From a virus: DNA of 28,277 nt. The DNA is taken from positions 1 through 28,277 of the IMG/VR virus record IMGVR_UViG_3300045988_062674; one strand, written 5' to 3'. Below the pieces are notes generated by a model. That model had not been told where the DNA came from. It saw nothing but the letters and a program-made list of their open reading frames with translations, and searched no databases. Position 1 is the first letter of the stretch; the number at the start of each line of letters is the position of its first letter. Positions 2,415-28,277 of this stretch are shown one piece after another. The position numbers and the translations under genes were made by a program.

Positions 2415-2595
2415 TTTTATTTGTGGCTTTATAAGTGTTATATCAATTTCAAAATCTAATTTGATATTTATGGATATTTTTGTTTTCATAAATATCACCG
2501 CTTTCTATTATGCGGAGTTTAACCGTGTCAACTTTATAAGTTTGACCCGTGTCTTTTGTGTAAGCTTTTTATTTAGCTTACACTTACATTATAAG

Positions 2596-2611
2596 CATAT
2601 GCATGCATATG
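2596..2611. promoter_or_regulatory. perfect 16-bp palindrome CATATGCATGCATATG
   Basis: Read directly. Located in the ORF-free divergent region, next to a 9-bp-stem hairpin GTGTAAGCT/AGCTTACAC (2557-2583). Candidate dimeric regulator site. Confidence 0.3.
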
Positions 2612-2767
2612 TCAACAAAAAATTAATAATATTTTTTTGTGCTCATTTTTTCAAAAAGCTTTTATCTTTGTAAACGTGTACGCAAGCACCTATTTATAAG
2701 GCTTTTAAGCGTGTTTGCGTTTAGTCTTATAAGATATAGTTATCAGACTTGTATATATGTACTATAT

Positions 2768-2930: not shown

Positions 2931-3156
2931 ACAATAATAAATATATGAATGTCATATGATTGAAGCCATGAACGTGGTTGTGTGGTGGTAGCTGCATAGG
3001 TTTGATTTTTAACCCTGAAAGCGCCTAGGGCTGGGATCAGATCAGCATAGACCCCCCCTATCTTTCAAAAGTTTTTTGCATTTTGGGGAACGGCGTGGGG
3101 AGTTCAAAAAAACTGGGTTATGAGCGCATGAGAGGGGGTAAAATCTGAATTTCTTC

Positions 3157-3175
3157 ATTTTGTACAGTGTACAAA
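3157..3175 (+). promoter_or_regulatory. conserved 19-nt element ATTTTGTACAGTGTACAAA, copy 1 (tandem TGTACA-G-TGTACA)
   Basis: Identical 19-mer recurs at 26824-26842. This copy lies about 210 nt upstream of the first packaging gene. Confidence 0.5.
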
Positions 3176-3270
3176 GAAAAACCGTGATATTCTGTAGTCG
3201 TGAAGATTGGAAAACATCTTCTGAACAAACAAGGTAGTTCTTGGATTGTTTCATTATTTCGTGCCCGTTG

Positions 3271-3300
3271 AAAAAGACCTGTGGAAACATGGGTCTTTTT
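3271..3300. terminator. bidirectional terminator-like hairpin AAAAAGACC...GGTCTTTTT
   Basis: A5-GACC(TGT) GGAA (ACA)..GGTC-T5 between the 19-nt element and the HNH gene. The A-run/T-run symmetry allows action on both strands. Confidence 0.45.
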
Positions 3301-3310
3301 CATATCACTG

Positions 3311-3377
3311 CATTCAAAGTGTTTACTGTTTAGATTTCCGTCCTTTCCTTTAAATCTGTTAACTAAAACTTTGAATG
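3311..3377 (+). promoter_or_regulatory. 67-nt imperfect hairpin abutting the HNH start codon
   Basis: CATTCAAAGT (3311-3320) pairs perfectly with ACTTTGAATG (3368-3377). Inner stems are TTTA/TAAA and AGATTT/AAATCT. The 3' arm ends 8 nt before ATG 3385, which has no obvious SD. Confidence 0.4.
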
Positions 3378-3384
3378 TAGCGAT

Positions 3385-3771
3385 ATGAAAAAATATTATG
3401 GTTCAGAAGCAACAAAAACAGGTGCTAGAAATTATGCTAGAAAATTTTACTCAAGCAAGGCTTGGGAAAAGAAAAGTAAAGCGTATAGAAAGGCACATCC
3501 ACTTTGTGAAAGATGTTTGAAAAAAGGTATCTATACCAGGTCGACTTGCGTGCACCACAAAGTGCACATTGACCAGGACAACTATAGAGATGTACACATT
3601 CTATTTGGCGATTCTAATTTGGAAGCGTTGTGTGACTTATGTCATGCAGAAGAACATTCCGAACGTAAACCATCTTTTGAATTTGATGAAAACGGAATGC
3701 TTATAGGATGTGGAAGGGAGGATGATGAATGCAAAAAGGAGCATGGAAAAAAAGAATCAATTCACAACTAG
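3385..3771 (+). CDS. HNH endonuclease (packaging-associated)
   Basis: CERC...CVHHKVH...NLEALCDLCHAEEH motif set (Cys pairs, HH and H-N-H) in a small 128-aa protein directly upstream of the terminase genes. Confidence 0.9.
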   Translation: MKKYYGSEATKTGARNYARKFYSSKAWEKKSKAYRKAHPLCERCLKKGIYTRSTCVHHKVHIDQDNYRDVHILFGDSNLEALCDLCHAEEHSERKPSFEFDENGMLIGCGREDDECKKEHGKKESIHN

Positions 3772-4103
3772 AGAATTTAGGCACATTTTCTCCTGAATAT
3801 TCGGTTGTGGTTGATTCACTTGCAGATGCCTTGGCCCAATACGATTCGACAATGAAGCAATGGAGAGATTCAAGTAAAGCAAATGGCTACAAATCACTAC
3901 AGATGGTTGTTGAATATACGAACAAGGGCGGTGCAACGAATTTATCGCGCTCGCCATACTACATTATTACCGTTCAATTACGTGATCAAATCATGAAATA
4001 CTGCAAAGAACTTGGCTTGTCACCTACTTCACTATCAAAGACAACAGAAGTATCCGAAAAAAAAGGTGATGAATTGGATGAGTTCATGAGCAGATTTAAA
4101 TGA
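3729..4103 (+). CDS. terS: terminase small subunit (P27-family-like)
   Basis: ATG 3729 lies 8 nt after GGGAGG. 124 aa. Matches by position and by ...GGATNLSRSPYY...LRDQIMKYCKELGLSP, typical of P27-type small subunits. Overlaps the HNH 3' end. Confidence 0.8.
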   Translation: MQKGAWKKRINSQLENLGTFSPEYSVVVDSLADALAQYDSTMKQWRDSSKANGYKSLQMVVEYTNKGGATNLSRSPYYIITVQLRDQIMKYCKELGLSPTSLSKTTEVSEKKGDELDEFMSRFK

Positions 4104-5758
4104 AATATTTAGACATTTATAAAGAACGTATTAAATCGGGTGAAGATGTAGTCGGTAAGTGGATAAAGCTTAATCTTCAATATGTTGAAAGAGGTTTAGC
4201 AAATGGAGATTTCTTCTATGATGAGAAAAAAGCAGAAATGCATATAGCGTTTATTGAAACGTTTTGTCATCACGTAGAAGGAAAAACAACAAAAGTAAAG
4301 CTTGAGCCTTGGCAAAAATATTATATTGCGTGCATATTCGGACTTGTTGATAAGAATGGAAAAAGGCAGTTTCGTGAAATACCTACGGTCATGGGCCGAA
4401 AACAAGGAAAATCATTTCTATGTGCAGGTATTGAACTTGATGTTGGATTTACATCGGATGAAGCAGGTATGCAGATATACAATATAGCGCCAAAGTTAAA
4501 ACAAGCGCAGATCATTTACAATGTTCTGTATCAAATGATGGAACACTCTAAAGCGTTGAGTCAAAGAGTGAAAAAACGTAGAACAGATATCTACATGAAA
4601 CAGAACAACTGTAGATGGGAGCCAATTGCCTTTGCATCTAAAAAATCAGACGGATTTAACCCATATTTGACAATCTTTGATGAGTTTGCAGCCTGGGAAG
4701 GGGAAGCGGGTATGAAAATGTACAACGTTATGTTGTCGGCAGGTGGTGCAAGACCTGATCCACTTTATATTCCTGTAAGTACCGCAAACTATATTGATGA
4801 AGGATTATATGATGAATTATTTGTTCGTGGAACATCTGTTTTACTTGGTACGTCTGATGAAAAACAAATGTTGCCTTTCTTTTATATGATTGATGATATT
4901 CAAAAATGGGATGATCCTATTGAATTAAGAAAAGCAATGCCAAACCTTGGAATATCGGTTTCTTATGAATATTTGCAGAATGAAATTTTAAAAGCACATA
5001 GCTCACCTACATATAAGGCGGAGTTCATAACAAAGTATGCGAATATCAAACAGAATTCAACAGAAGCATTATTCAGTGCAGAAGATATTAACAAAGTTAA
5101 AGGTGAAGAACTTAGATTTGAAGATTTTGCACATACATATGCAGTTGGTGGAATTGACTTGTCACAGACAACCGATTTAACAGCCGCATCTGTAGTTATA
5201 CGAATTCAAAAACAAGACTACATATTTACTCATTTTTGGCTTCCAACATTAAAAATCAAGGAGCTAGAAGAAAGAGACAAAATACCATATACAAGATTTA
5301 TTCAATTGGGATATTTAAGTCCAAGTGGGGAAAACTTTGTACGGTATGAAGATGTTACGGAATGGTTTGAAATGCTACGTAAGAAATACAAGATTTATTG
5401 CGTGGTCGTTGGATATGACCGTTATTCGGCTCAGTATCTTGTGGACGATATGAAGAAATACGGATACAAGATGGATGATGTTATTCAGGGTACTAACCTT
5501 ACACCAGTTATTAATGAATTTACGGGATATGTAAGAGATGGATTTGTTCATACAGGAACAAACGGACTTTTACAAGCACATATGTCTAGTGTTGCATTAA
5601 AGAAAGTTGCAGAAGACAATCGTGTTCGCATGATTAAAACTGATCCAAGAAAACATATTGATGGGTATGCATCTGTTATTGATGCATATACAGTAAGACA
5701 AAAATGGTGGGATACATTCAAGTACCGCCTTGAAAACGAGAAAAGGAAGGTGAATTAG
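4100..5758 (+). CDS. terL: terminase large subunit
   Basis: 552 aa. Walker-A-like GRKQGKS, IFDEFAAW (Walker B) and a C-terminal nuclease-like region (VGGIDLS...DGYASVIDA). ATGA overlap with terS. Confidence 0.95.
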   Translation: MKYLDIYKERIKSGEDVVGKWIKLNLQYVERGLANGDFFYDEKKAEMHIAFIETFCHHVEGKTTKVKLEPWQKYYIACIFGLVDKNGKRQFREIPTVMGRKQGKSFLCAGIELDVGFTSDEAGMQIYNIAPKLKQAQIIYNVLYQMMEHSKALSQRVKKRRTDIYMKQNNCRWEPIAFASKKSDGFNPYLTIFDEFAAWEGEAGMKMYNVMLSAGGARPDPLYIPVSTANYIDEGLYDELFVRGTSVLLGTSDEKQMLPFFYMIDDIQKWDDPIELRKAMPNLGISVSYEYLQNEILKAHSSPTYKAEFITKYANIKQNSTEALFSAEDINKVKGEELRFEDFAHTYAVGGIDLSQTTDLTAASVVIRIQKQDYIFTHFWLPTLKIKELEERDKIPYTRFIQLGYLSPSGENFVRYEDVTEWFEMLRKKYKIYCVVVGYDRYSAQYLVDDMKKYGYKMDDVIQGTNLTPVINEFTGYVRDGFVHTGTNGLLQAHMSSVALKKVAEDNRVRMIKTDPRKHIDGYASVIDAYTVRQKWWDTFKYRLENEKRKVN

Positions 5759-9679: not shown

Positions 9680-10005
9680 GACAACAGATTGTAGCTAAAT
9701 TCACTGAACTTTTAGGTGAAGGACAATTTGTATACGGAAGTTTCAAATCAAAACCCCATACCCCCTATGGGAATTATGCATTGGATTATACAAATAATTA
9801 CTTTGCAGACAATAGAACGTATTGTAAGATTGGAACTTACATATATAGATTAGTGACTGATCAAAAAGATTTTGAATTAGAAGCTAAAATCGAAGATATG
9901 TTTGATGAATTAGAAATACCATACCAAACCATCACAGATGAAGATATAAACACTCAAAAAGTACACTGTACAGAATGGGCGGTGACATTAGTTGGCCGTC
10001 AATGA
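9667..10005 (+). CDS. putative neck/tail-completion protein
   Basis: 112 aa, overlapping both neighbours (coupled). Assigned by position in the neck module; family not recognised. Confidence 0.6.
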   Translation: METVRQQIVAKFTELLGEGQFVYGSFKSKPHTPYGNYALDYTNNYFADNRTYCKIGTYIYRLVTDQKDFELEAKIEDMFDELEIPYQTITDEDINTQKVHCTEWAVTLVGRQ

Positions 10006-22211: not shown

Positions 22212-23096
22212 ATGGCAGGAAAACAAGTAACAGAGTTAGACGCATTACCTAGTTTCACTGATAATAGCTTATTGCCTGTACACAATGGTGCAGGATTAAA
22301 AAAAGGTTTATTATCGCAACTAGCAAATTATTTAGGAACCAAATTCAATAATCCGAATCTATTGATTAATCCGGATTTTAAAATCAATCAAAGAGGTGCT
22401 ACAAGCTACGAACAACAAGGTTATTCAGTAGATAGATGGAAGATTTGGAATGTTACGGTTACACCAAGCACAAGTGGAGGAATCACTGTAAAGAATGACA
22501 AATACACAGATACCGGAACATTTATTCAAATTCTAGAGAATGCAACAGAGGGAGATTCTACATTATCATGCTACGTAACATCAGTAACAGGAACAGTAAC
22601 AATGTTCGCAGATGATAATACGCAAGTTGTATTGAAACAGGGGTTAAATGTAGTGCATAAAAGTAATAGCACAAAGAACTTTTCAATCTTTTTAAATAGG
22701 GGTACTAGCATCACACTTAAATGGGTAAAGTTAGAGCAAGGAAAAGTCGCAACTTCATTTATTGCTCCAAATCCGGCGGAGGAACTAGAAAAATGTCTAA
22801 GATTCAGTAGATACATACCTACCATTTACTGCGTACCATTAAGAAGATATATAGGTGATATAAGCAATGCAAGAGCTTATTATTTACCACTAGGATGTGT
22901 ATTTGAGACTAAATTAAGAGCAAAAGGAACGATTTCTTTAAAAGGAGGCGTGTTTGATAGTACAAGTTTATCTTTAGGAGATATAAAAGAAATCGATTAT
23001 AGCCCAGACGAGATAAAGCAAGTTATCATGCCACAAGAGATGACACCTTGGACACTTATTCTTAAAAAAGTATTTATTGACGCAGAAATTTATTAG
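22212..23096 (+). CDS. receptor-binding tail fibre/RBP candidate
   Basis: ATG 22212 follows AAGGAGG (the track start at 22152 overlaps the previous gene). The N-terminus MAGKQVTELDALPSFTDNSLLPVHNG..KKGLLSQLANYL is a typical fibre anchoring motif. The C-terminus is beta-rich. Confidence 0.7.
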   Translation: MAGKQVTELDALPSFTDNSLLPVHNGAGLKKGLLSQLANYLGTKFNNPNLLINPDFKINQRGATSYEQQGYSVDRWKIWNVTVTPSTSGGITVKNDKYTDTGTFIQILENATEGDSTLSCYVTSVTGTVTMFADDNTQVVLKQGLNVVHKSNSTKNFSIFLNRGTSITLKWVKLEQGKVATSFIAPNPAEELEKCLRFSRYIPTIYCVPLRRYIGDISNARAYYLPLGCVFETKLRAKGTISLKGGVFDSTSLSLGDIKEIDYSPDEIKQVIMPQEMTPWTLILKKVFIDAEIY

Positions 23097-23105
23097 GAGG
23101 AAGCT

Positions 23106-23453
23106 ATGAACGACGAATATAAAGTATACGTATCCTTACAAGATGGATACATCACATCTATTAATTCAGAAATTTTCTTATCAGAAGAAGAAATTCAAAC
23201 AATGGCAGAGATTGATAAGGGACAAGGTGATAAATACGCACACGCACAAAGTCAATATCTAGAAAAAGGATTATTTGATGAACACGGTAGATATAACTAC
23301 AAATATGTAGAAGGTAAAGTGATTGAGGTTGCAGAAGCAGACAAACCAACAATTGAAGAACCAAAAGCAGTACCAACTGAGCAAGAAAAGATTAACGCAC
23401 AATTAATGTTACAAATCGCACAGTTAAAAGCTCAGATGAATGGGGTGAAGTAG
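23106..23453 (+). CDS. XkdW-like protein
   Basis: 115 aa. Lies directly upstream of an XkdX-like gene, with a C-terminal coiled EQEKINAQLMLQIAQLKAQ. Assigned by synteny with PBSX-like modules. Confidence 0.55.
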   Translation: MNDEYKVYVSLQDGYITSINSEIFLSEEEIQTMAEIDKGQGDKYAHAQSQYLEKGLFDEHGRYNYKYVEGKVIEVAEADKPTIEEPKAVPTEQEKINAQLMLQIAQLKAQMNGVK

Positions 23454-23454
23454 T

Positions 23455-23577
23455 ATGAGTTATGAATTAATTAAATCGTATTATGAATTAGGCTTATTTA
23501 CAAAGAGTGATTTAGAAATCTTTGCTTCTATTGGTTGGATTAGTGTAGAACAAATTGATTCTATTATTAATAAATAG
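23455..23577 (+). CDS. XkdX-family small protein (40 aa), not in ORF track
   Basis: Hand translation MSYELIKSYYELGLFTKSDLEIFASIGWISVEQIDSIINK matches the XkdX pattern (Y.L.K.YY..GL.T..D...F...G.IT.EQ). GGGGTGAAG RBS. Confidence 0.75.
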   Translation: MSYELIKSYYELGLFTKSDLEIFASIGWISVEQIDSIINK

Positions 23578-23588
23578 GTGATGTTTCT

Positions 23589-23882
23589 ATGAGTGGTGAA
23601 TATCTTAGTGTTATTATTTCTGCATGCATGCTTGTAATTGCATTTATTACGTATAATCGTGGTACACGCAAGATGGATGGAGAACAAATATCCAATATGG
23701 CATTTTTGAAGAATGAATTGGAACATATCAAATCGGATTTAAGTGATATAAAGAATTCAATTTCAGAAATTAAAAAAGGAAGTAATTTAATGGAAGTGGA
23801 GCTTTCAGAACTAAAACAACAAATAAAAACTTTGTTTAATCGTGTAGAAGCGTTGGAGGAACGTAATAAAAATGGATATTAA
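23589..23882 (+). CDS. BhlA/UviB-like holin-like membrane protein (N-terminal TM + coiled coil)
   Basis: 97 aa. N-terminal TM (LSVIISACMLVIAFITY) followed by a heptad-rich helix. AGGTGA RBS. Lies just upstream of the lysis-associated genes. Confidence 0.6.
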   Translation: MSGEYLSVIISACMLVIAFITYNRGTRKMDGEQISNMAFLKNELEHIKSDLSDIKNSISEIKKGSNLMEVELSELKQQIKTLFNRVEALEERNKNGY

Positions 23883-24105
23883 AGATGCAAACAAGAAACT
23901 TCAGAATGTAGAAGAAAAAGTAGATAACATTTATGGTTTTTGTTCAAAATTAATTGATCGAAACTATAAAACAAGTAGAACGATTATTACAGTATTGGTT
24001 TTAGTGATTATTGTTCTTTATTCTACTATTGTTTGTTGTGGTTATTGGAAAGATGATCATGTGAATAATTGTTCTTGCGAAGCTAATTCAAGCCAACAAA
24101 TTTAA
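23872..24105 (+). CDS. XhlA-like membrane protein (N-terminal coiled coil + C-terminal TM)
   Basis: 77 aa. Helical N-terminus, then TM IITVLVLVIIVLYSTIVCCGYW. Architecture and position resemble PBSX XhlA. Confidence 0.55.
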   Translation: MDIKDANKKLQNVEEKVDNIYGFCSKLIDRNYKTSRTIITVLVLVIIVLYSTIVCCGYWKDDHVNNCSCEANSSQQI

Positions 24106-24113
24106 TTAAGGCG

Positions 24114-24347
24114 GTGGTTTATATTAACAAAGCTAACAGATTAAAAGAGATACGTCCTAAAGATGCATTAATACTTATCAAATCTGTTGGATTAAGAAAA
24201 AAATATGAACAGGTTTTGATTATGAGATACGTATATGACATGTCATGTACCGAAATTGCAGATGCATTATGTGTGGAAGTACAAGCCATAAGGAACAGAG
24301 TATGCAAAGCAAGAAAAATGTTCGATAAATATGTGAGCAATCTATAA
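24114..24347 (+). CDS. mini sigma-70 region-4-like HTH protein (77 aa)
   Basis: LRKKYEQVLIMRYVYDMSCTEIADALCVEVQAIRNRVCKARKMF fits the sigma70 r4/YlxM-type HTH. No region 2 is present. GTG start. Last gene before a strong terminator. Confidence 0.65.
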   Translation: MVYINKANRLKEIRPKDALILIKSVGLRKKYEQVLIMRYVYDMSCTEIADALCVEVQAIRNRVCKARKMFDKYVSNL

Positions 24348-24366
24348 TGATTGCTCATTTTATTTT
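24334..24366 (+). terminator. strong rho-independent terminator ending the structural operon
   Basis: TGAGCAATC-TATAAT-GATTGCTCA (9-bp perfect stem) followed by TTTTATTTT. Confidence 0.8.
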
Positions 24367-24377
24367 GGGTATTTTAT

Positions 24378-24448
24378 GAGTATTATTCGAGTATTAAATT
24401 ATTTGTTGCGTAACCATATAATTAAAGCGTAAAGATAAAGCGTTAAGA
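24378..24448 (+). promoter_or_regulatory. candidate promoter/operator region of the accessory cassette
   Basis: Contains the direct repeat GAGTATTA x2 at 11-nt period (24378-85, 24389-96), a perfect TATAAT (24417-24422), and the tandem 13-mers TAAAGCGTAAAGA/TAAAGCGTTAAGA (24423-24448) abutting the RBS. Confidence 0.4.
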
Positions 24449-24458
24449 GGTGGTTGAA

Positions 24459-24899
24459 ATGTATAACAATTATAATCCAGCACAAGCACGAATTGACAGT
24501 TTGATGCAACAAAGACAAATGATAGATCAACAAATTCAGCAAGTACAACAGTATGCAAATATTCCACCTATCAACATTAATAATCAGATTACACCACAAC
24601 AACAAGGTAATTTTGATTTTAATGGAAAATGGGTGAACGATGAGCAGGAAGCTAGAAACTTTGCGAATGCAAATTTACCAACGATTTTATTTGATAACAA
24701 TAAGTCTATTTTTTATATGAAATCTTTAGATGGAACATTTAAAAAATTTAAATTCGAAGAAATCACGGAAGATGCTTCTAACAGTATAGAAAATCGTGTA
24801 AATGGAATCGAAAAGAAATTAGATGATTTGATATGTGCATTAAGCAAACCACCAAAACAAGCTAATGAGCAACCAAAGAAAGGAGCACAAACAAAATGA
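24459..24899 (+). CDS. hypothetical protein, Q-rich N-terminus + small globular C-domain (146 aa)
   Basis: ATG 24459 lies 5 nt after AAGAGGTGG (the track start is GTG 24450). The Q/N-rich first ~55 aa are followed by GKWVNDEQEARNF...IFYMKSLDGTFKKFKFEE. No named family. Confidence 0.7.
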   Translation: MYNNYNPAQARIDSLMQQRQMIDQQIQQVQQYANIPPININNQITPQQQGNFDFNGKWVNDEQEARNFANANLPTILFDNNKSIFYMKSLDGTFKKFKFEEITEDASNSIENRVNGIEKKLDDLICALSKPPKQANEQPKKGAQTK

Positions 24900-25138
24900 A
24901 TCCTTTAAAAAGTATTATGGGAAATATGAATCCAATGAATATGATGAATATGGGAAATCCCCAACAAATGTTAATGAATATGTTGTCACAGAAAAATCCA
25001 CAAGCATTTCAACAATTTCAAATGCTTATGAACAGTGGTCAAAATCCACAAGCGATTTTAAATCAGATGATGGGTAATTTAAATCCACAACAAAAGCAAC
25101 AACTGCAACAAATGGCAAAACAGTTTGGAATCAGGTAA
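24896..25138 (+). CDS. Q/N/M-rich low-complexity protein with NPQ repeats (80 aa)
   Basis: ATGA overlap with the upstream stop. About four degenerate NPQ(Q/A)..Q(M/L)(L/M) repeats. No TM or signal peptide obvious. Confidence 0.65.
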   Translation: MNPLKSIMGNMNPMNMMNMGNPQQMLMNMLSQKNPQAFQQFQMLMNSGQNPQAILNQMMGNLNPQQKQQLQQMAKQFGIR

Positions 25139-25179
25139 CAACGGATAAACCGTTATTATAGAAAGAAAGGAGAACATAT

Positions 25180-25812
25180 ATGATGGAAAATGGAATGGGA
25201 ATTCAACCAACTTACAACTTAGCTGAAAGAGATGACGGCTTTGGAAACGGCGGAGGTTGGTGGATTTGGATCTTGCTAATCTTCGTATTATTTGGATATG
25301 GAGGATATGGAGGATATGGCAACGGAAACCTAGCAAATGATTCTTTATTAAATGAAGAATTCATTAAACGAGACATTTTTAACACAAACACAAATGTATC
25401 TCAAACAGGTTGCCAAACTCAACGAGACGTACTAGAAAGTCGCTATACTAATCAGTTAGGACTTCAAAACTTGCAAGCTCAGCAACAAGAATGTTGCTGC
25501 AACACTCAACGTGCAATTGACAATGTAAATGCTCAAAGTTTCAAAAACACTTGTGACATTACAACAGCAATTCATTCAGAAGGTGAAGCAACACGTGCGT
25601 TGATCAATGCAAACACTATGCAAGAATTACGTGATCGCTTAGCTGATCGTGATCGTGATTTATTGACGGCTAATTTCCAATTAAGTCAACAGGCACAATC
25701 AGCAAACATCATTAATACTTTGCAACCAACACCAAAACCAGCATACATTACATGTTCACCATATTACGCTTATAACAACGGATGTGGATGTAATGGCTAC
25801 AACAACTTATAA
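25180..25812 (+). CDS. Gly/Tyr-flanked single-TM, Cys-rich, Q-rich protein (210 aa)
   Basis: AAGGAG RBS. GFGNGGGWWIWILLIFVLFGYGGYGGYGNG resembles tiny G-rich TM sporulation peptides (YjcZ-like). Eight Cys, including ECCC and GCGC. Helical Q/N-rich core. Confidence 0.7.
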   Translation: MMENGMGIQPTYNLAERDDGFGNGGGWWIWILLIFVLFGYGGYGGYGNGNLANDSLLNEEFIKRDIFNTNTNVSQTGCQTQRDVLESRYTNQLGLQNLQAQQQECCCNTQRAIDNVNAQSFKNTCDITTAIHSEGEATRALINANTMQELRDRLADRDRDLLTANFQLSQQAQSANIINTLQPTPKPAYITCSPYYAYNNGCGCNGYNNL

Positions 25813-25853
25813 TCTAGCACATATGTGATTAGGCAATTGCCTTTGGATTTAAC

Positions 25854-25881
25854 GGGATAGTCGAAAGGCTATCCCTATTTT
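25854..25881 (+). terminator. internal hairpin GGGATAGTC-GAAA-GGCTATCCC + TATTTT (attenuator/partial terminator)
   Basis: 9-bp stem (one G-U pair) with a GAAA tetraloop. Only ~18 nt separate it from the next ATG, so there is no room for a new promoter downstream of it. Confidence 0.5.
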
Positions 25882-25899
25882 AATAGGAGGATAAAAGAA

Positions 25900-26319
25900 A
25901 TGATTAATAGTATAGCAACGGCAGTACAAACAGTAGCAAACGGACAAAATGTATTATTCCCAACGGATAGAGTAAGAACAAAATCATGCCAATGTGCATG
26001 TAAAGGTTGGCTTGCTCATGATGTAGGAAGTGGATTATTTACATTGACGAAGCAAGGAATTTATGAAGTAGAATATACGGTAGATATTACAAGCGCAACG
26101 GTAGGAGTCGCTTCTTTAGAATTAGAACAGAATGGAGAAGCAGTAGGAGGAACAGAATCTCTATATAATGTAGCTACTGCGAGCGCATACGGAAATGTTA
26201 GTGGAGCTACATTGATTCAAGTACCTTGTGGAGCTTCTTACACAATTACGCTAGGTAATAACAGTGGTTTAGATTTATCTGTTCAGAATGCAAATATCAT
26301 TATTAAGAAGATTGCGTAG
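25900..26319 (+). CDS. stand-alone BclA C-terminal domain-like (C1q/TNF-like jelly-roll) protein (139 aa)
   Basis: FTLTKQGIYEVEYTVDITSATVGVASLELEQNGEAVGGT and the terminal NANIIIKKIA parallel FVISETGFYKITVIANTATASVLGGLTIQVNGVPVPGT and SASIIIEKVA of B. anthracis BclA (compared from memory). No collagen GXX repeats. AGGAGG RBS. Confidence 0.65.
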   Translation: MINSIATAVQTVANGQNVLFPTDRVRTKSCQCACKGWLAHDVGSGLFTLTKQGIYEVEYTVDITSATVGVASLELEQNGEAVGGTESLYNVATASAYGNVSGATLIQVPCGASYTITLGNNSGLDLSVQNANIIIKKIA

Positions 26320-26328
26320 GTGAAAAAT

Positions 26329-26802
26329 ATGCATAAAGCAATGGAAGTTAATGAGAAGATAATGCATGAGTCAGTAAACATGTTAGAGAAATATGGATAT
26401 GCAGAATCTTATTTCCATGCATTATCTCAAGCTTTAGATAATATCAAAGACATTGAAACTATAGAAGCAATGAGAAATAAATATCAAATTGAGATAGGAA
26501 AAGATGGAGTTTCAACTGTTGCAAGATTAAAAGAAGATAATGATGGATATAATATTCATGATCCAGAAACAGAAGATATTGTTTATAAGCTTGCAGAACA
26601 TTTGAAAAAATATAAAGCGTTCAAAGAAGAATATACGCGTACAAAAGGTGATATGGATTTAGAAAAGTCTCATCGTGAATTAGATAAGACTATGAAATGT
26701 ATGCAACAAATCGTAACTATGATTCATGGATGCGTTGATTCAGATGAAGAAAAAACAATGATTAAGACACATATACGAGACATGTTTAATATGTATCAAT
26801 AA
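26329..26802 (+). CDS. hypothetical helical protein (157 aa)
   Basis: ATG 26329 lies 5 nt after AGGTGA (the track start is GTG 26320). K/E/M/H-rich helical composition. No family recognised. Confidence 0.65.
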   Translation: MHKAMEVNEKIMHESVNMLEKYGYAESYFHALSQALDNIKDIETIEAMRNKYQIEIGKDGVSTVARLKEDNDGYNIHDPETEDIVYKLAEHLKKYKAFKEEYTRTKGDMDLEKSHRELDKTMKCMQQIVTMIHGCVDSDEEKTMIKTHIRDMFNMYQ

Positions 26803-26828
26803 GGCCGTTAAATACGGTCTTTTATTTT
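26801..26828 (+). terminator. rho-independent terminator closing the accessory cassette
   Basis: AAGGCCGT-TAAAT-ACGGTCTT stem (one G-U pair) followed by TTATTTT. Confidence 0.6.
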
Positions 26829-26842
26829 GTACAGTGTACAAA
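26824..26842 (+). promoter_or_regulatory. conserved 19-nt element ATTTTGTACAGTGTACAAA, copy 2
   Basis: Identical to 3157-3175. Lies ~40 nt upstream of the holin ATG, immediately after the cassette terminator, with TATTAT/TATTAG -10-like hexamers downstream. Confidence 0.5.
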
Positions 26843-26881
26843 CGATTTAAATATTATTATTAGGATAGGAGGTATTTGTAA

Positions 26882-27103
26882 ATGAAAAAATATAGTAAAG
26901 AATGGTGGATTCAATATGGCTATTATGCAAGTATCAGAGCATTAAAGACAATTGCTCAAACTGCTGTTGGTGTTATTGGAGCATCTGCATTGTTGGAAGC
27001 CGTTGATTGGCGAGTTGTAATTTCGTCAGCGGTTTTGTCAGGCATCGTCTCGTTGCTGACTAGTATTGGCGGATTACCTGAAATTAGTGTACCGGAGGAA
27101 TAA
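26882..27103 (+). CDS. holin (r1t/Phage_holin_1-like)
   Basis: 73 aa with two TM segments. IRALKTIAQTAVGVIGAS...VDWRVVISSAVLSGIVSLLTS matches the ..KTFAQT..G......VDW...L..S pattern. GGAGG RBS. Lies directly upstream of the endolysin. Confidence 0.85.
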   Translation: MKKYSKEWWIQYGYYASIRALKTIAQTAVGVIGASALLEAVDWRVVISSAVLSGIVSLLTSIGGLPEISVPEE

Positions 27104-27105
27104 TA

Positions 27106-27219
27106 ATGAATGATGAAGAAAAAGTAGTAGATTATGAGAATCTATCAGAAGAAGCAAAAGAAGAATTAAGCAATGGCAAGGAAGAAGGTGTAGATGAAGA
27201 ATGTCATATTCCGGATTAG
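27106..27219 (+). CDS. small acidic ORF (37 aa) between holin and endolysin, not in ORF track
   Basis: ATG 27106 lies 6 nt after GGAGGA. MNDEEKVVDYENLSEEAKEELSNGKEEGVDEECHIPD. Overlaps the endolysin start by 19 nt. Confidence 0.4.
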   Translation: MNDEEKVVDYENLSEEAKEELSNGKEEGVDEECHIPD

Positions 27220-28277
27220 CAACATATTGTAACAGAACATCACAACATTATGATGGCCGTTTTGGATATAAGGTTTGTAAAATCACTCCACACTACATGG
27301 CTGCGGCATGGAGTGGTAAACAATGTGCAGATTATTTTGCACGAAATACTCGTCAAGCATCTTCCAATTATTGTATTGGAATTAATGGAGACATTGCATG
27401 CAGTGTTGATGAAGAAAATGCTGCATGGACAAGTTCAAATTGGTTGAATGATTCTCAATCAATTACAATTGAATGTGGAAACATTAATAACGCAACTGGA
27501 GAAATGACGCAAGCTACTTGGGATAGCTTGGTGAATCTATGTGTTGATATTTGTAAACGATATGGATTTAGATTGAACTATACAGGAAATTCTAGCGGAT
27601 CATTGACTATGCACAAAATGTTTGCGGCTACATCATGCCCTGGAGCATGGTTGGAAGCACGTATGCCACAATTGGCTAATGAAGTAAATGCAAAGTTAGA
27701 TGGAAAGGTTGAAACACCAAAACCTACAACTCCAAGTGGAGAAAAATATTCAGTTAATTTACCTATCTGTACAAACACATTGAGTGTGAATTGCTACGGA
27801 ACTTCTACAGTTAAAAAAGGTGATTGGTCAGGTGTCATTGGTAGAGTAATTAAAGGAACAAAATATCCATATCGTATTGATCGTAATGGAGTAGCGATTG
27901 GGTGGACTAATGATGCCGGTATTGATACAGACCCTCATGTGCCAGTTGGCGCCACACAGTCTAGCGCAGAAGCTATCGACCAAATCTTGCACGAAGGCAG
28001 CTATGTTACTTCTGTACATATGAAAATTGGCAATCAAGGATTGAAGAAAATTGGCGATGATTTATGTTGCTATCTATCAAAACTGGGTGGTTGGTTTCCA
28101 ATTCGTATGGTAGACAAAGTACCTAATTCAGATGGATATAATGACAATGTACTGCATACCACAAATGCAGTAGTCTACGTATCTAGAATCAGAGTCGATG
28201 CAGTGAATGTTCAAAAGAACATTGTCAAGATTGGTGGCGTTTGGGTTGATCCAACACCGTTAACAGAAATTGAATAA
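27201..28277 (+). CDS. endolysin: N-acetylmuramoyl-L-alanine amidase (Amidase_2/PGRP-type) with C-terminal cell-wall-binding region
   Basis: 358 aa. The N-terminal ~165 aa carry the Amidase_2-like pattern (...ITPHYMA...NYCIG..G......EN.AW.......NDSQSITIE...H....ATSCPG). The C-terminal half is beta-rich and SH3-like. Confidence 0.9.
   Translation: MSYSGLATYCNRTSQHYDGRFGYKVCKITPHYMAAAWSGKQCADYFARNTRQASSNYCIGINGDIACSVDEENAAWTSSNWLNDSQSITIECGNINNATGEMTQATWDSLVNLCVDICKRYGFRLNYTGNSSGSLTMHKMFAATSCPGAWLEARMPQLANEVNAKLDGKVETPKPTTPSGEKYSVNLPICTNTLSVNCYGTSTVKKGDWSGVIGRVIKGTKYPYRIDRNGVAIGWTNDAGIDTDPHVPVGATQSSAEAIDQILHEGSYVTSVHMKIGNQGLKKIGDDLCCYLSKLGGWFPIRMVDKVPNSDGYNDNVLHTTNAVVYVSRIRVDAVNVQKNIVKIGGVWVDPTPLTEIE

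What the first reader, a model, noticed from the sequence alone, without database searches (positions are those of the whole stretch)
3157..3175. Identical 19-nt element (tandem TGTACA-G-TGTACA core) upstream of both the packaging genes and the lysis genes
ATTTTGTACAGTGTACAAA occurs at 3157-3175 and again at 26824-26842, both on the + strand and both in intergenic DNA just upstream of late transcription units. A 19-mer identity in 28 kb is far beyond chance, although single TGTACA hexamers occur at about the expected rate. The core is a direct repeat of a palindromic hexamer, suiting a dimer or tetramer of a regulator or an alternative promoter element. A 12/13 inverted copy (GTACACTGTACA, 9961-9972) lies inside a CDS ~20 nt before the gp10-like gene; it is weaker and may be coincidental. 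Candidate readers are the mini sigma-r4-like protein (24114-24347) or an activator encoded outside the window.
Basis: seen in the sequence. Interest (0 to 1): 0.6.

Follow-up and report, generated by a model that had tools for sequence, protein, structure and literature searches.

The report
Shared operator of two late promoters
A perfect 17-base palindrome sits in the same place in front of the DNA-packaging genes and the cell-lysis genes of a gut-bacterial phage, and most likely is the docking site through which one phage regulator switches on both late gene blocks: a tidy but fairly ordinary kind of phage control element.

Summary
ATTTTGTACAGTGTACAAA occurs exactly twice (3157-3175, 26824-26842; 0.03 expected).

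The window is a fragment of a temperate cos/HNH siphophage of Erysipelotrichaceae (Holdemanella/Solobacterium). Complete relatives carry exactly these two copies.

In both copies a -10-like hexamer starts 13 nt after the palindrome, and no -35 is present. The palindrome centre therefore falls near -33.

Five distant prophages keep an extended -10 (TGnTATnnT) at the homologous place before HNH. Two of them carry a different perfect palindrome at the identical distance.

Those prophages have one late operon and one box. This family has three terminators before the lysis genes, and the second box directly follows the last one.

I read the element as the operator of an activator-dependent late promoter, used twice. 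The likeliest reader is a DUF1492 (LtrB-type) regulator encoded just outside the window. The 77-aa sigma-region-4 protein is less likely, because the distant box-bearing prophages lack it.

This scan has noted comparable paired late-promoter boxes on other DNA. I rate it a new member of a known kind, of modest interest. One open point is a promoter-proximal terminator conserved after the first box.

The parts
3159..3175 (+). Box 1: perfect palindrome TTTGTACA-G-TGTACAAA (identical 19-mer 3157-3175), inferred to span -41 to -25 of late promoter PL1
   Evidence: The core is intact in all 58 HNH-anchored sequences, a set not selected for the motif; only the last A varies, in 2 of them.
3185..3193 (+). 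Extended -10 of PL1: TG-a-TATTCT (hexamer 3188-3193). No -35-like hexamer lies at 16-18 nt. The start site, inferred near 3199-3201, is not mapped.
   Evidence: Read from the sequence. The block is invariant in 49 haplotypes. Five distant prophages conserve the same block, TGnTATnnT/GATAAT-GTA.
3202..3221 (+). 5' hairpin of the PL1 leader (GAAGAT...ATCTTC); its 5' arm sequence CGnRAGA is conserved across lineages
3274..3301 (+). Promoter-proximal terminator-like hairpin (GACCTGTG-GAAA-CATGGGTC plus T5), about 75-100 nt after the inferred start site
   Evidence: Fold z-score of -5.85 for 3196-3400. Compensatory C-G to U-A and G-U/G-C changes among 37 leader haplotypes. A GC hairpin plus T-run, with unrelated stem sequence, occurs at the same place in five distant prophages.
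3298..3390 (+). Long hairpin whose 3' arm buries the HNH start codon (3385)
   Evidence: the same architecture appears in G274, G216 and G236.
3102..3102 (+). Physical left end of virion DNA (cos), 57 nt upstream of box 1: GTTCAAAAAAACTGGG...
   Evidence: Illumina adapter sequence is fused directly to this base in two independent contigs (L070, L095), and a third contig (L047) starts there.
3385..5758 (+). HNH endonuclease (3385-3771), terS (3729-4103) and terL (4100-5758): the first genes of the about 20-kb packaging-head-tail operon served by PL1
   Evidence: PHROG matches. Terminator-like sites between 3400 and 23390 do not exceed chance: 6 found against 8.2 expected.
26801..26821 (+). Intrinsic terminator immediately upstream of box 2; the last of three + strand terminators (24333, 25854, 26801) in the accessory block before the lysis genes
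   Evidence: 7 terminator-like sites against 1.3 expected in 23000-27300.
26826..26842 (+). Box 2: identical palindrome (identical 19-mer 26824-26842), in the same inferred position in promoter PL2
   Evidence: Of 83 sequences anchored on the r4 gene, a set not selected for the motif, 77 carry the exact 17-mer, 4 differ only at its outermost base and 2 have one substitution in the hexamer core.
26855..26860 (+). -10 hexamer of PL2 (TATTAT; TATCAT in some relatives) at the same offset (+13) as in PL1; followed by the RBS AGGAGG and the holin ATG at 26882
   Evidence: only hexamer position 4 varies. In the diverged relative L199 the spacer is unrelated but TAGTAT sits at the same offset.
26882..28277 (+). 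Holin (26882-27103) and endolysin (27201 to the window end, 3'-open): the lysis cassette served by PL2
   Evidence: holin phrog_443
24114..24347 (+). 77-aa stand-alone sigma-70 region-4 protein: the less likely candidate reader
   Evidence: Pfam Sigma70_r4_2, 1.8e-8. The nearest solved relative is SigW region 4. It is conserved in the family but has no orthologue in the distant box-bearing prophages.
9960..9972 (+). 12/13 core match AGTACACTGTACA inside a coding sequence; judged coincidental

Best explanation
The palindrome is the protein-binding box of an activator-dependent late promoter that this phage family uses twice. Each copy sits where a -35 element would be (centre near -33), 12 nt upstream of a -10 hexamer, and there is no usable -35.

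A dimeric phage late regulator is inferred to bind the box and recruit host RNA polymerase. The most likely regulator is the 155-aa DUF1492 (LtrB-type) protein, made from the early operon and encoded just left of this truncated record.

PL1 (box 1) drives HNH-terS-terL through the tail genes. PL2 (box 2) restarts late transcription for holin and endolysin, because a terminator-flanked accessory block (24.3-26.8 kb) cuts them off from PL1. One regulator would thus fire packaging and lysis together.

Shown here: the repeat, its symmetry, its fixed geometry relative to a conserved -10, its conservation, and the terminator layout.
For: (1) There are two exact copies against 0.03 expected. Complete relatives G002 and G003 and the prophage in a Solobacterium-labelled genome also carry exactly two.

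(2) The geometry is the same at both copies: TATTCT and TATTAT start 13 nt after the box. The position where a -35 would lie with a 17-nt spacer reads CAGTGT.

(3) In sequence sets not selected for the motif, the box and -10 positions 1, 2, 3, 5 and 6 are essentially invariant. Changes cluster just 3' of the box, at -13 and at -10 position 4.

(4) In the diverged relative L199 the holin-upstream spacer is unrelated. The box (2 substitutions) and a TAGTAT at the same offset persist.

(5) Five distant prophages of the host family (HNH 60-67%, terL 54-65% identity) keep cos and an extended -10 at the homologous site. G111 and G032 carry a different perfect palindrome, TTTTAGGAA-N-TTCCTAA, whose centre lies at the identical distance from the -10.

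(6) Those prophages have one box. In G032 the holin follows the preceding gene with no terminator or promoter. Here three terminators precede the holin and box 2 abuts the last, while the 20 kb after PL1 has none above chance.

(7) All five relatives examined encode a DUF1492/phrog_36 protein at 95-97% identity. LtrB/DUF1492 proteins are tested activators of terS promoters that bind repeats upstream of terS (PMC3753634). G111 and G032 share one box and an identical C-terminal helix in this protein; this family differs in both.

(8) The host genome shows no enrichment of the motif: no other perfect site, and 27 against 17 control matches at up to 2 mismatches. The CI/Cro operators have a different half-site, GTATGC.
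Against: Most family members are 85-95% identical, so conservation within the family is weak evidence by itself.

Published Ltr sites are direct repeats placed just after the ltr gene, and they drive a single late promoter. Here the site is an inverted repeat, the gene lies about 6 kb away, and there are two promoters.

A dimer centred at -33 would occupy the place of sigma region 4, which is unusual for an activator and usual for a repressor. PL1 has an extended -10 and might fire without help.

A terminator conserved 75-100 nt after PL1 is not explained by simple activation.

The window itself does not contain the proposed regulator gene. A phage with a 66%-identical r4 gene and a different packaging module shows no TGTACA box before its holin and no shared box of 9 nt or more between its packaging and lysis upstream regions.

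The box/regulator co-variation rests on two closely related prophages, and terS has diverged in parallel.
Confidence: 0.65

Rival explanations
1. The box and promoters are as described, but the reader is the 77-aa stand-alone sigma region-4 protein (24114-24347). It would bind as a GerE-like dimer and either activate both promoters or act late as a brake or competitor at them.
For: It is a clean region-4 helix-turn-helix (Pfam 1.8e-8; SigW sigma-4 is the nearest solved relative). A small single-domain helix-turn-helix suits a short perfect palindrome, and the half-site TTGTACA resembles a -35 hexamer. It is conserved at 92-96% in all relatives and lies 2.5 kb upstream of box 2. In L199 both its recognition helix and the box differ from this family.
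Against: Distant prophages with a palindromic box at the same promoter position have no orthologue; only weak hits to host sigma factors appear. A phage with a 66%-identical copy has no TGTACA box before its holin. The gene lies inside the late region with no evident early promoter, so it could not start late transcription.
Confidence: 0.15
2. The palindrome is a repressor operator. PL1 (extended -10) and PL2 are intrinsically active, and a dimeric phage or host repressor sitting over -41 to -25 keeps packaging and lysis genes silent in the lysogen.
For: A dimer centred at -33 is the classic position for promoter occlusion. PL1 carries TGnTATTCT, a promoter type that can work without a -35, and this extended -10 is conserved in all lineages.
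Against: PL2 has neither a TG extension nor a -35, so it should be weak unaided. The CI/Cro operators are different. The 68-aa helix-turn-helix gene next to cos in G002 and G003 is absent from this window, which keeps both boxes. The host genome shows no regulon. Related Gram-positive siphophages need Ltr activators for late genes (PMC3753634).
Confidence: 0.12
3. The box is a loading site for a promoter-bound antiterminator, like the lambda Q-binding element. The regulator modifies RNA polymerase at PL1 so that it reads through the conserved leader terminator.
For: A GC hairpin plus T-run follows the conserved -10 in all six lineages, with unrelated stem sequences and compensatory changes. 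A conserved -10-like RAGA(A/T) lies in the first transcribed bases. The r4 protein has sub-threshold similarity to Q-type proteins (PF06530, 4.2e-4; phrog_79, 4.8e-5).
Against: PL2 carries the same box but no leader terminator. A processively antiterminated PL1 transcript would cross the three downstream terminators and make PL2 unnecessary. The PF06530 score (20.7) is below Pfam's cut-off (26) and covers only the generic helix-turn-helix. Both promoters lack the -35 that Q-type promoters have.
Confidence: 0.12
4. Box 1 is a cosB-like recognition site for small terminase or HNH next to the cohesive end, and the holin-upstream copy is a by-product.
For: Box 1 lies 57-73 nt to the right of the mapped virion DNA end at 3102, where lambda has its first terminase-binding site (from general knowledge of lambda cos). 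terS has diverged between lineages, as have the boxes.
Against: An identical copy with the same -10 spacing lies 23.7 kb away, in front of the holin, and is maintained in all 83 unselected family sequences (77 exact, 6 with one substitution) and, with 2 substitutions, in L199. The distance to a promoter -10 is conserved across lineages. The rest of the cos region is not duplicated at the second site.
Confidence: 0.05

Closest known systems
Ltr superfamily of late transcriptional activators of Gram-positive siphophages (RinA, ArpU, LtrA/Sigma70_r4, LtrB/DUF1492, LtrC) and their repeat boxes upstream of terS (PMC3753634; RinA: PMC3152322)
   Same: A small phage regulator with a sigma-4-like C-terminal domain is made from the early operon. 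A short repeated DNA site lies upstream of the first packaging gene. One regulator controls both packaging and lysis genes. The family's 155-aa protein passes the Pfam DUF1492 threshold.
   Different: Published sites are direct repeats lying just after the ltr gene, and one promoter serves the whole late cluster. Here the site is a perfect inverted repeat in the -35 position. The regulator gene lies about 6 kb away, behind accessory and anti-defence genes and the cos site. The box is used twice, and the first promoter has a conserved leader terminator. Binding is untested.
P2 Ogr and Mu C/Mor late promoters (from general knowledge)
   Same: Several late promoters in one phage each carry the same dyad-symmetric activator site and lack a good -35.
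   Different: The proteins are unrelated (zinc-finger Ogr; Mor/C family), the hosts are Gram-negative, and the sites are centred further upstream (about -55 and -43.5) rather than at -33.
Activator sites that replace the -35 element, for example the PhoB pho box and lambda cII sites at PRE (from general knowledge)
   Same: The activator site lies about 10-12 nt upstream of the -10 in place of a -35 hexamer, so the promoter is inactive without the protein.
   Different: Those sites are direct repeats read by response-regulator or cII folds. Here the site is an inverted repeat, and the suspected reader has a sigma-4-like fold.
Lambda pR' - Q-binding element - tR' late control (from general knowledge)
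   Same: A promoter-proximal terminator follows the late promoter, and a regulator site is embedded in the promoter.
   Different: The lysis promoter copy has no terminator. Both promoters lack a -35. The similarity to Q proteins is below family threshold.

Membership tests
Ltr-dependent late promoter (Ltr superfamily, LtrB/DUF1492 branch) | The phage encodes a small regulator with the DUF1492 / sigma-4-like C-terminal domain | tested here: met
   The 155-aa protein of complete relative G002 scores 23.4 bits on PF07374 against a cut-off of 21.5 (E 7e-5) and matches phrog_36 'transcriptional regulator'. It is 95-97% conserved in five relatives. The gene lies outside this truncated window, so its presence in this exact phage is inferred.
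Ltr-dependent late promoter (Ltr superfamily, LtrB/DUF1492 branch) | [quoted passage not shown] | tested here: met
   It is on the same strand, downstream of the replication genes. It lies about 6 kb before the box in G002 and about 1.2-4.5 kb before the homologous HNH-upstream promoter in the distant prophages. It is not immediately adjacent, as it is in the published cases.
Ltr-dependent late promoter (Ltr superfamily, LtrB/DUF1492 branch) | A repeat-containing site upstream of the first packaging gene | tested here: met
   The TGTACA-G-TGTACA site lies 210 nt before the HNH ATG. It is an inverted repeat, whereas the published sites are described as direct repeats.
Ltr-dependent late promoter (Ltr superfamily, LtrB/DUF1492 branch) | The regulator binds the site and is required for late transcription | not testable with these tools
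   This needs EMSA, reporter or deletion experiments.
Sigma-A (sigma-70 type) promoter | -10 hexamer with A at position 2 and T at position 6 | tested here: met
   TATTCT (with a TG extension) and TATTAT lie at the same offset. The element is conserved in five distant prophages.
Sigma-A (sigma-70 type) promoter | -35 hexamer 16-18 nt upstream of the -10 | tested here: not met
   That position reads CAGTGT. The TGTACA hexamers lie at spacings of 21 and 14 nt. The only scan hit uses an overlapping alternative TATTAT at PL2, three bases upstream of the hexamer adopted here, and no equivalent exists at PL1.
Q-type antiterminator system | A protein belonging to a Q family | tested here: not met
   The r4 protein scores 20.7 bits on PF06530 against a cut-off of 26, over the helix-turn-helix only.
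Q-type antiterminator system | A terminator shortly downstream of the regulated promoter | tested here: inconclusive
   It is present and conserved after PL1 in six lineages but absent after PL2.

The most novel reading that the evidence does not exclude
DUF1492/LtrB-type late regulators in this phage group do more than recruit polymerase. Loaded at the palindrome in the -35 position, they make RNA polymerase read through a promoter-proximal terminator. That terminator is conserved in structure but not in sequence after the packaging promoter in six lineages. If so, at least part of the Ltr superfamily of Gram-positive phages would work as Q-like antiterminators, and PL1 would produce a short terminated RNA of about 100 nt in their absence.
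Probability: 0.15. Interest if true: 0.7.

Novelty: new member of a known kind. Interest (0 to 1): 0.35.

Why it matters
The result gives a concrete, testable late-gene switch for an abundant, uncultured prophage family of the human-gut Erysipelotrichaceae: two promoters, one 17-bp operator and a named candidate regulator.

It shows how a phage rewires late control when accessory cassettes with terminators are inserted before the lysis genes: it copies the operator plus the -10.

It extends the Ltr picture (one promoter, direct repeats) to a palindromic site that replaces the -35.

It also flags a conserved promoter-proximal terminator that may point to an unrecognised step in late control.

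The box could serve as a marker for late promoters when annotating related prophages, and as a part for building inducible promoters in these bacteria.

Tried and rejected
- **Cultured relatives.** Megablast of both contexts, and tblastn of both candidate regulators, against cultured phage records found nothing beyond one 34%-identity match of the r4 protein to an unannotated 5-kb faecal phage record.
- **Known RNA families.** An Rfam scan of the whole window found nothing at E up to 1.
- **Host regulon.** The host genome has no other perfect site and little enrichment, so I rejected this.
- **CI/Cro as reader.** The switch operators have a different half-site, so I rejected this.
- **The 68-aa helix-turn-helix gene next to cos in G002 and G003.**
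- **Direct similarity between the r4 protein and the LtrB-like protein.** None was found.
- **Unrelated phages carrying TGTACA-N-TGTACA** (L068, L039, L058, L030). They encode no homologue of either candidate, so their motifs are independent.
- **The L199 box variant in the viral collection.** The search returned only coding-sequence chance hits.
- **r4-anchored searches of viral and metagenome contigs.** Nearly all hits were the close family. The one diverged phage (L285/L328/L331) has a different packaging module, no TGTACA box, and no shared box of 9 nt or more.
- **A second copy of the lineage-specific palindrome in G111 and G032.** None was found.

Full report
**Observation**

The 19-mer ATTTTGTACAGTGTACAAA is present at 3157-3175 and 26824-26842 on the + strand. 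Chance predicts 0.03 matches, and no shuffle reaches the observed count.

It is equally a perfect 8+1+8 inverted repeat, TTTGTACA-G-TGTACAAA. That is why one search also returns both sites on the minus strand with only flank and centre mismatches.

TGTACA hexamers number 17 against 9.65 expected. Four of them belong to the two boxes.

It is coding (V-H-C-T), lacks the T/A flanks and has no -10 at the fixed offset. About 0.11 such 12/13 matches are expected per window. I treat it as coincidental.

**Setting**

The window is an entire IMG/VR record, linear and estimated 63% complete.

- It carries HNH (3385), terS, terL, portal and protease.
- A long structural block follows, then the holin (26882) and an endolysin that runs off the end.
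- The viral collection holds well over fifty contigs of the same family, many of 40-47 kb.
- A prophage copy lies in a MAG labelled Solobacterium.
- The r4 protein is 91% identical to a Holdemanella biformis protein.

The host is therefore a gut member of the Erysipelotrichaceae. No cultured phage is related.

Complete relatives G002 and G003, and the prophage, have exactly two full palindromes, one in each context.

**Promoter anatomy**

In both contexts a -10-like hexamer starts 13 nt after the palindrome. It is TG-a-TATTCT at 3185-3193 and TATTAT at 26855-26860.

No -35 lies at 16-18 nt. The position for a 17-nt spacer reads CAGTGT, and the two TGTACA hexamers would give spacers of 21 and 14 nt. 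With the -10 at -12 to -7, the palindrome spans -41 to -25 and is centred at -33. This numbering is inferred; no start site has been mapped.

At the holin copy the inferred start leaves a short leader with AGGAGG before the ATG.

At the HNH copy the inferred leader is about 185 nt and strongly structured (z = -5.85). It contains:

- a 5' hairpin (3202-3221);
- a terminator-like hairpin with a T-run (3274-3301);

**Conservation without selection on the motif**

Loci found through the motif are biased, so I re-sampled with anchors elsewhere.

- **r4-anchored set (83 sequences, 62 haplotypes).** The exact 17-mer is present in 77. Four differ only at its outermost base, and two carry one substitution in the hexamer core. 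Variation clusters at the two bases just 3' of the box, at -13, at position 4 of the -10 hexamer, and between the -10 and the RBS (a holin-start anchor shows the same variants).
- **HNH-anchored set (58 sequences, 49 haplotypes).** The core is intact in all; only the last A varies, in two.

The family is only 5-15% diverged, so this alone is weak evidence.

A more distant relative is more telling. In L199 (r4 protein 76% identical) the holin-upstream region has a terminator, then ATTTTGGACAGTGTACAAT, then a 12-nt spacer with no resemblance to ours, then TAGTAT at the same offset.

**Distant prophages**

I searched 301 genomes of the host's family with the LtrB-like protein. This found five prophages whose regulator is only about 20-30% identical (19-29%) but whose packaging genes are clearly related: HNH 60-67%, terL 54-65%.

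Upstream of HNH all five keep the cos motif GGGGAACGGnGnGGGGAGTT. All five also keep the block (C)CGTGA-[T/G]ATnnT-GTA, an extended -10.

Two of them (G111, G032) have a different perfect palindrome, TTTTAGGAA-N-TTCCTAA. Its centre lies exactly as far from the -10 as in our box. A third (G236) has TGAAAA-T-TTTTCA close to that position.

A conserved -10 with a lineage-specific palindrome at fixed distance is what an activator-dependent promoter with co-evolving regulators should look like.

G111 and G032 share both the box and an identical C-terminal helix of the regulator. Our family differs in both. This is a single, phylogenetically confounded comparison.

**Why there are two copies**

G111 and G032 each have one box. 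In G032 the holin follows the previous gene with no terminator or promoter, so there is a single late operon. That matches published Ltr phages.

In our family the 20 kb after HNH has no terminators above chance: 6 found against 8.2 expected. The region 23.0-27.3 kb has 7 against 1.3 expected, including strong + strand terminators at 24333, 25854 and 26801. Box 2 begins five bases after the last one.

The simplest reading is this. A terminator-flanked accessory block separates the lysis cassette from PL1, and a copy of box plus -10 restores late control of lysis.

**Who reads it**

The host genome has no other perfect site and little enrichment: 27 against 17 control matches at up to 2 mismatches. 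The CI/Cro switch uses a different half-site.

Two phage candidates remain.

- **The DUF1492/phrog_36 protein (155 aa).** It is encoded in complete relatives about 2.4 kb left of this window's start. DUF1492 is the LtrB family, shown experimentally to activate a cognate terS promoter; related Ltr proteins bind repeats upstream of terS through their C-terminal domain (PMC3753634).
- **The 77-aa stand-alone sigma region-4 protein at 24114-24347**.

The distant prophages with palindromic boxes have the first but no orthologue of the second. A phage with a 66%-identical r4 gene shows no TGTACA box before its holin. I therefore favour the LtrB-like protein, at roughly 55% against 15%, with the rest unknown.

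**Rival readings**

- **Repressor operator.** This is plausible from the position (-33) and the extended -10 of PL1. It fits poorly with PL2, which has neither a TG extension nor a -35, and no matching repressor is evident.
- **cosB-like terminase site.** Its location suggests this. Illumina adapters are fused directly to GTTCAAAAAAACTGGG in two contigs and a third contig starts there, which places the virion DNA end at 3102, 57 nt before box 1. The maintained second copy with identical -10 spacing argues against it.
- **Q-like antitermination.** See the next section.

**Unexplained feature**

In all six lineages the conserved -10 before HNH is followed by three elements:

- a 5' hairpin whose 5' arm keeps the sequence CGnRAGA;
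- 40-100 nt into the leader, a GC hairpin plus T5-6 with unrelated stem sequences;
- in this family and three of the five distant prophages (G274, G216, G236), a long hairpin over the HNH start.

Within the family the terminator stem shows compensatory C-G to U-A and G-U/G-C changes.

Packaging-operon transcripts must therefore pass a terminator. This could be simple attenuation, or it could mean that the box-bound regulator also confers read-through.

PL2 has no such leader, and its very existence argues against processive antitermination from PL1. I give the antitermination reading about 0.12-0.15.

**Comparison and verdict**

The element works like the Ltr-controlled terS promoters of Gram-positive siphophages. 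In its multi-promoter dyad-box logic it also resembles P2 Ogr and Mu C late promoters.

It differs from published Ltr cases in four ways. It is an inverted repeat in the -35 position. It is used at two promoters. The regulator gene is displaced by accessory genes and cos. The first promoter has a leader terminator.

Earlier notes of this scan describe similar paired late-promoter boxes in other phages, so the pattern is recurrent. I rate it a new member of a known kind, of modest interest. The one open question is the conserved leader terminator.

Noticed in passing
window 3102 (context 3060-3140): Physical end of virion DNA. Illumina adapter sequence is fused directly to GTT(C/T)AAAAAAACT in two independent contigs (L070, L095), and contig L047 starts at the same base. 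The adjoining motif GGGGAACGGnGnGGGGAGTT is conserved in five distant prophages. The right end and the overhang were not determined; one 44.7-kb contig (L207) ends at the base matching window 3063.
   Followed up: partly
window 3119-3136: A hypervariable purine/pyrimidine-alternating patch (CATGAGTGCATGAGA, CATGCGCGTACGAGA, CATGTGTGTGTGACAA and others) lies between the cos end and a conserved GGGGGT. There are 19 variants among 58 sequences, while the flanks on both sides are nearly invariant.
   Followed up: partly
window 3274-3301; G274, G216, G236, G111, G032 leaders: A promoter-proximal GC hairpin plus T-run follows the packaging promoter in six lineages, conserved in position but not in sequence, with compensatory changes inside the family. 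A candidate attenuator or antitermination target.
   Followed up: partly
L068 5605-12640 (IMGVR_UViG_3300037585_001448, 93 kb, 57% GC): An unrelated high-GC phage carries six copies of TGTACA-N-TGTACA within 7 kb, each 9-35 nt before a start codon. It has no homologue of either candidate regulator. This looks like an independent use of the same dyad as a gene-start-associated motif.
   Followed up: no
L039 7556-7590: In another unrelated phage fragment, two tandem copies of TTGTACATTGTACA(A/G)ACTTCCAT follow a terminator downstream of a holin homologue (39% identity). They face a large serine-recombinase-like gene on the opposite strand.
   Followed up: no
window 24348-26802: A block of five small genes of unknown function lies between the r4 gene and the holin, bounded and divided by three intrinsic terminators. 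It looks like an accessory (moron-type) insertion and is the likely reason the lysis genes need their own promoter.
   Followed up: partly
window 23456-23578: An unlisted 40-aa ORF (MSYELIKSYYELGLFTKSDLEIFASIGWISVEQIDSIINK) resembles XkdX-type small tail-region proteins (from memory, not tested). It precedes an XhlA-like gene, giving a PBSX-like order that the r4 gene and the accessory block interrupt.
   Followed up: no
L331 2500-2745 (phage with r4 66% identical): That phage has a 115-aa gene directly before its packaging genes whose C-terminal sequence looks Ltr-like by eye (not tested against Pfam), and a tRNA-like sequence (GGGGGTTCGATTCC arm) between the two. Its head and packaging module is SPP1-like, showing mosaic exchange around a shared lysis-proximal block.
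   Followed up: no
window 2588-2615 (minus strand): A perfect consensus promoter, TTGACA-16-TATAAT, faces the minus-strand operon (338-2348). It overlaps the 16-bp palindrome noted earlier, which fits autoregulation by the RHH protein at 2121-2348.
   Followed up: no
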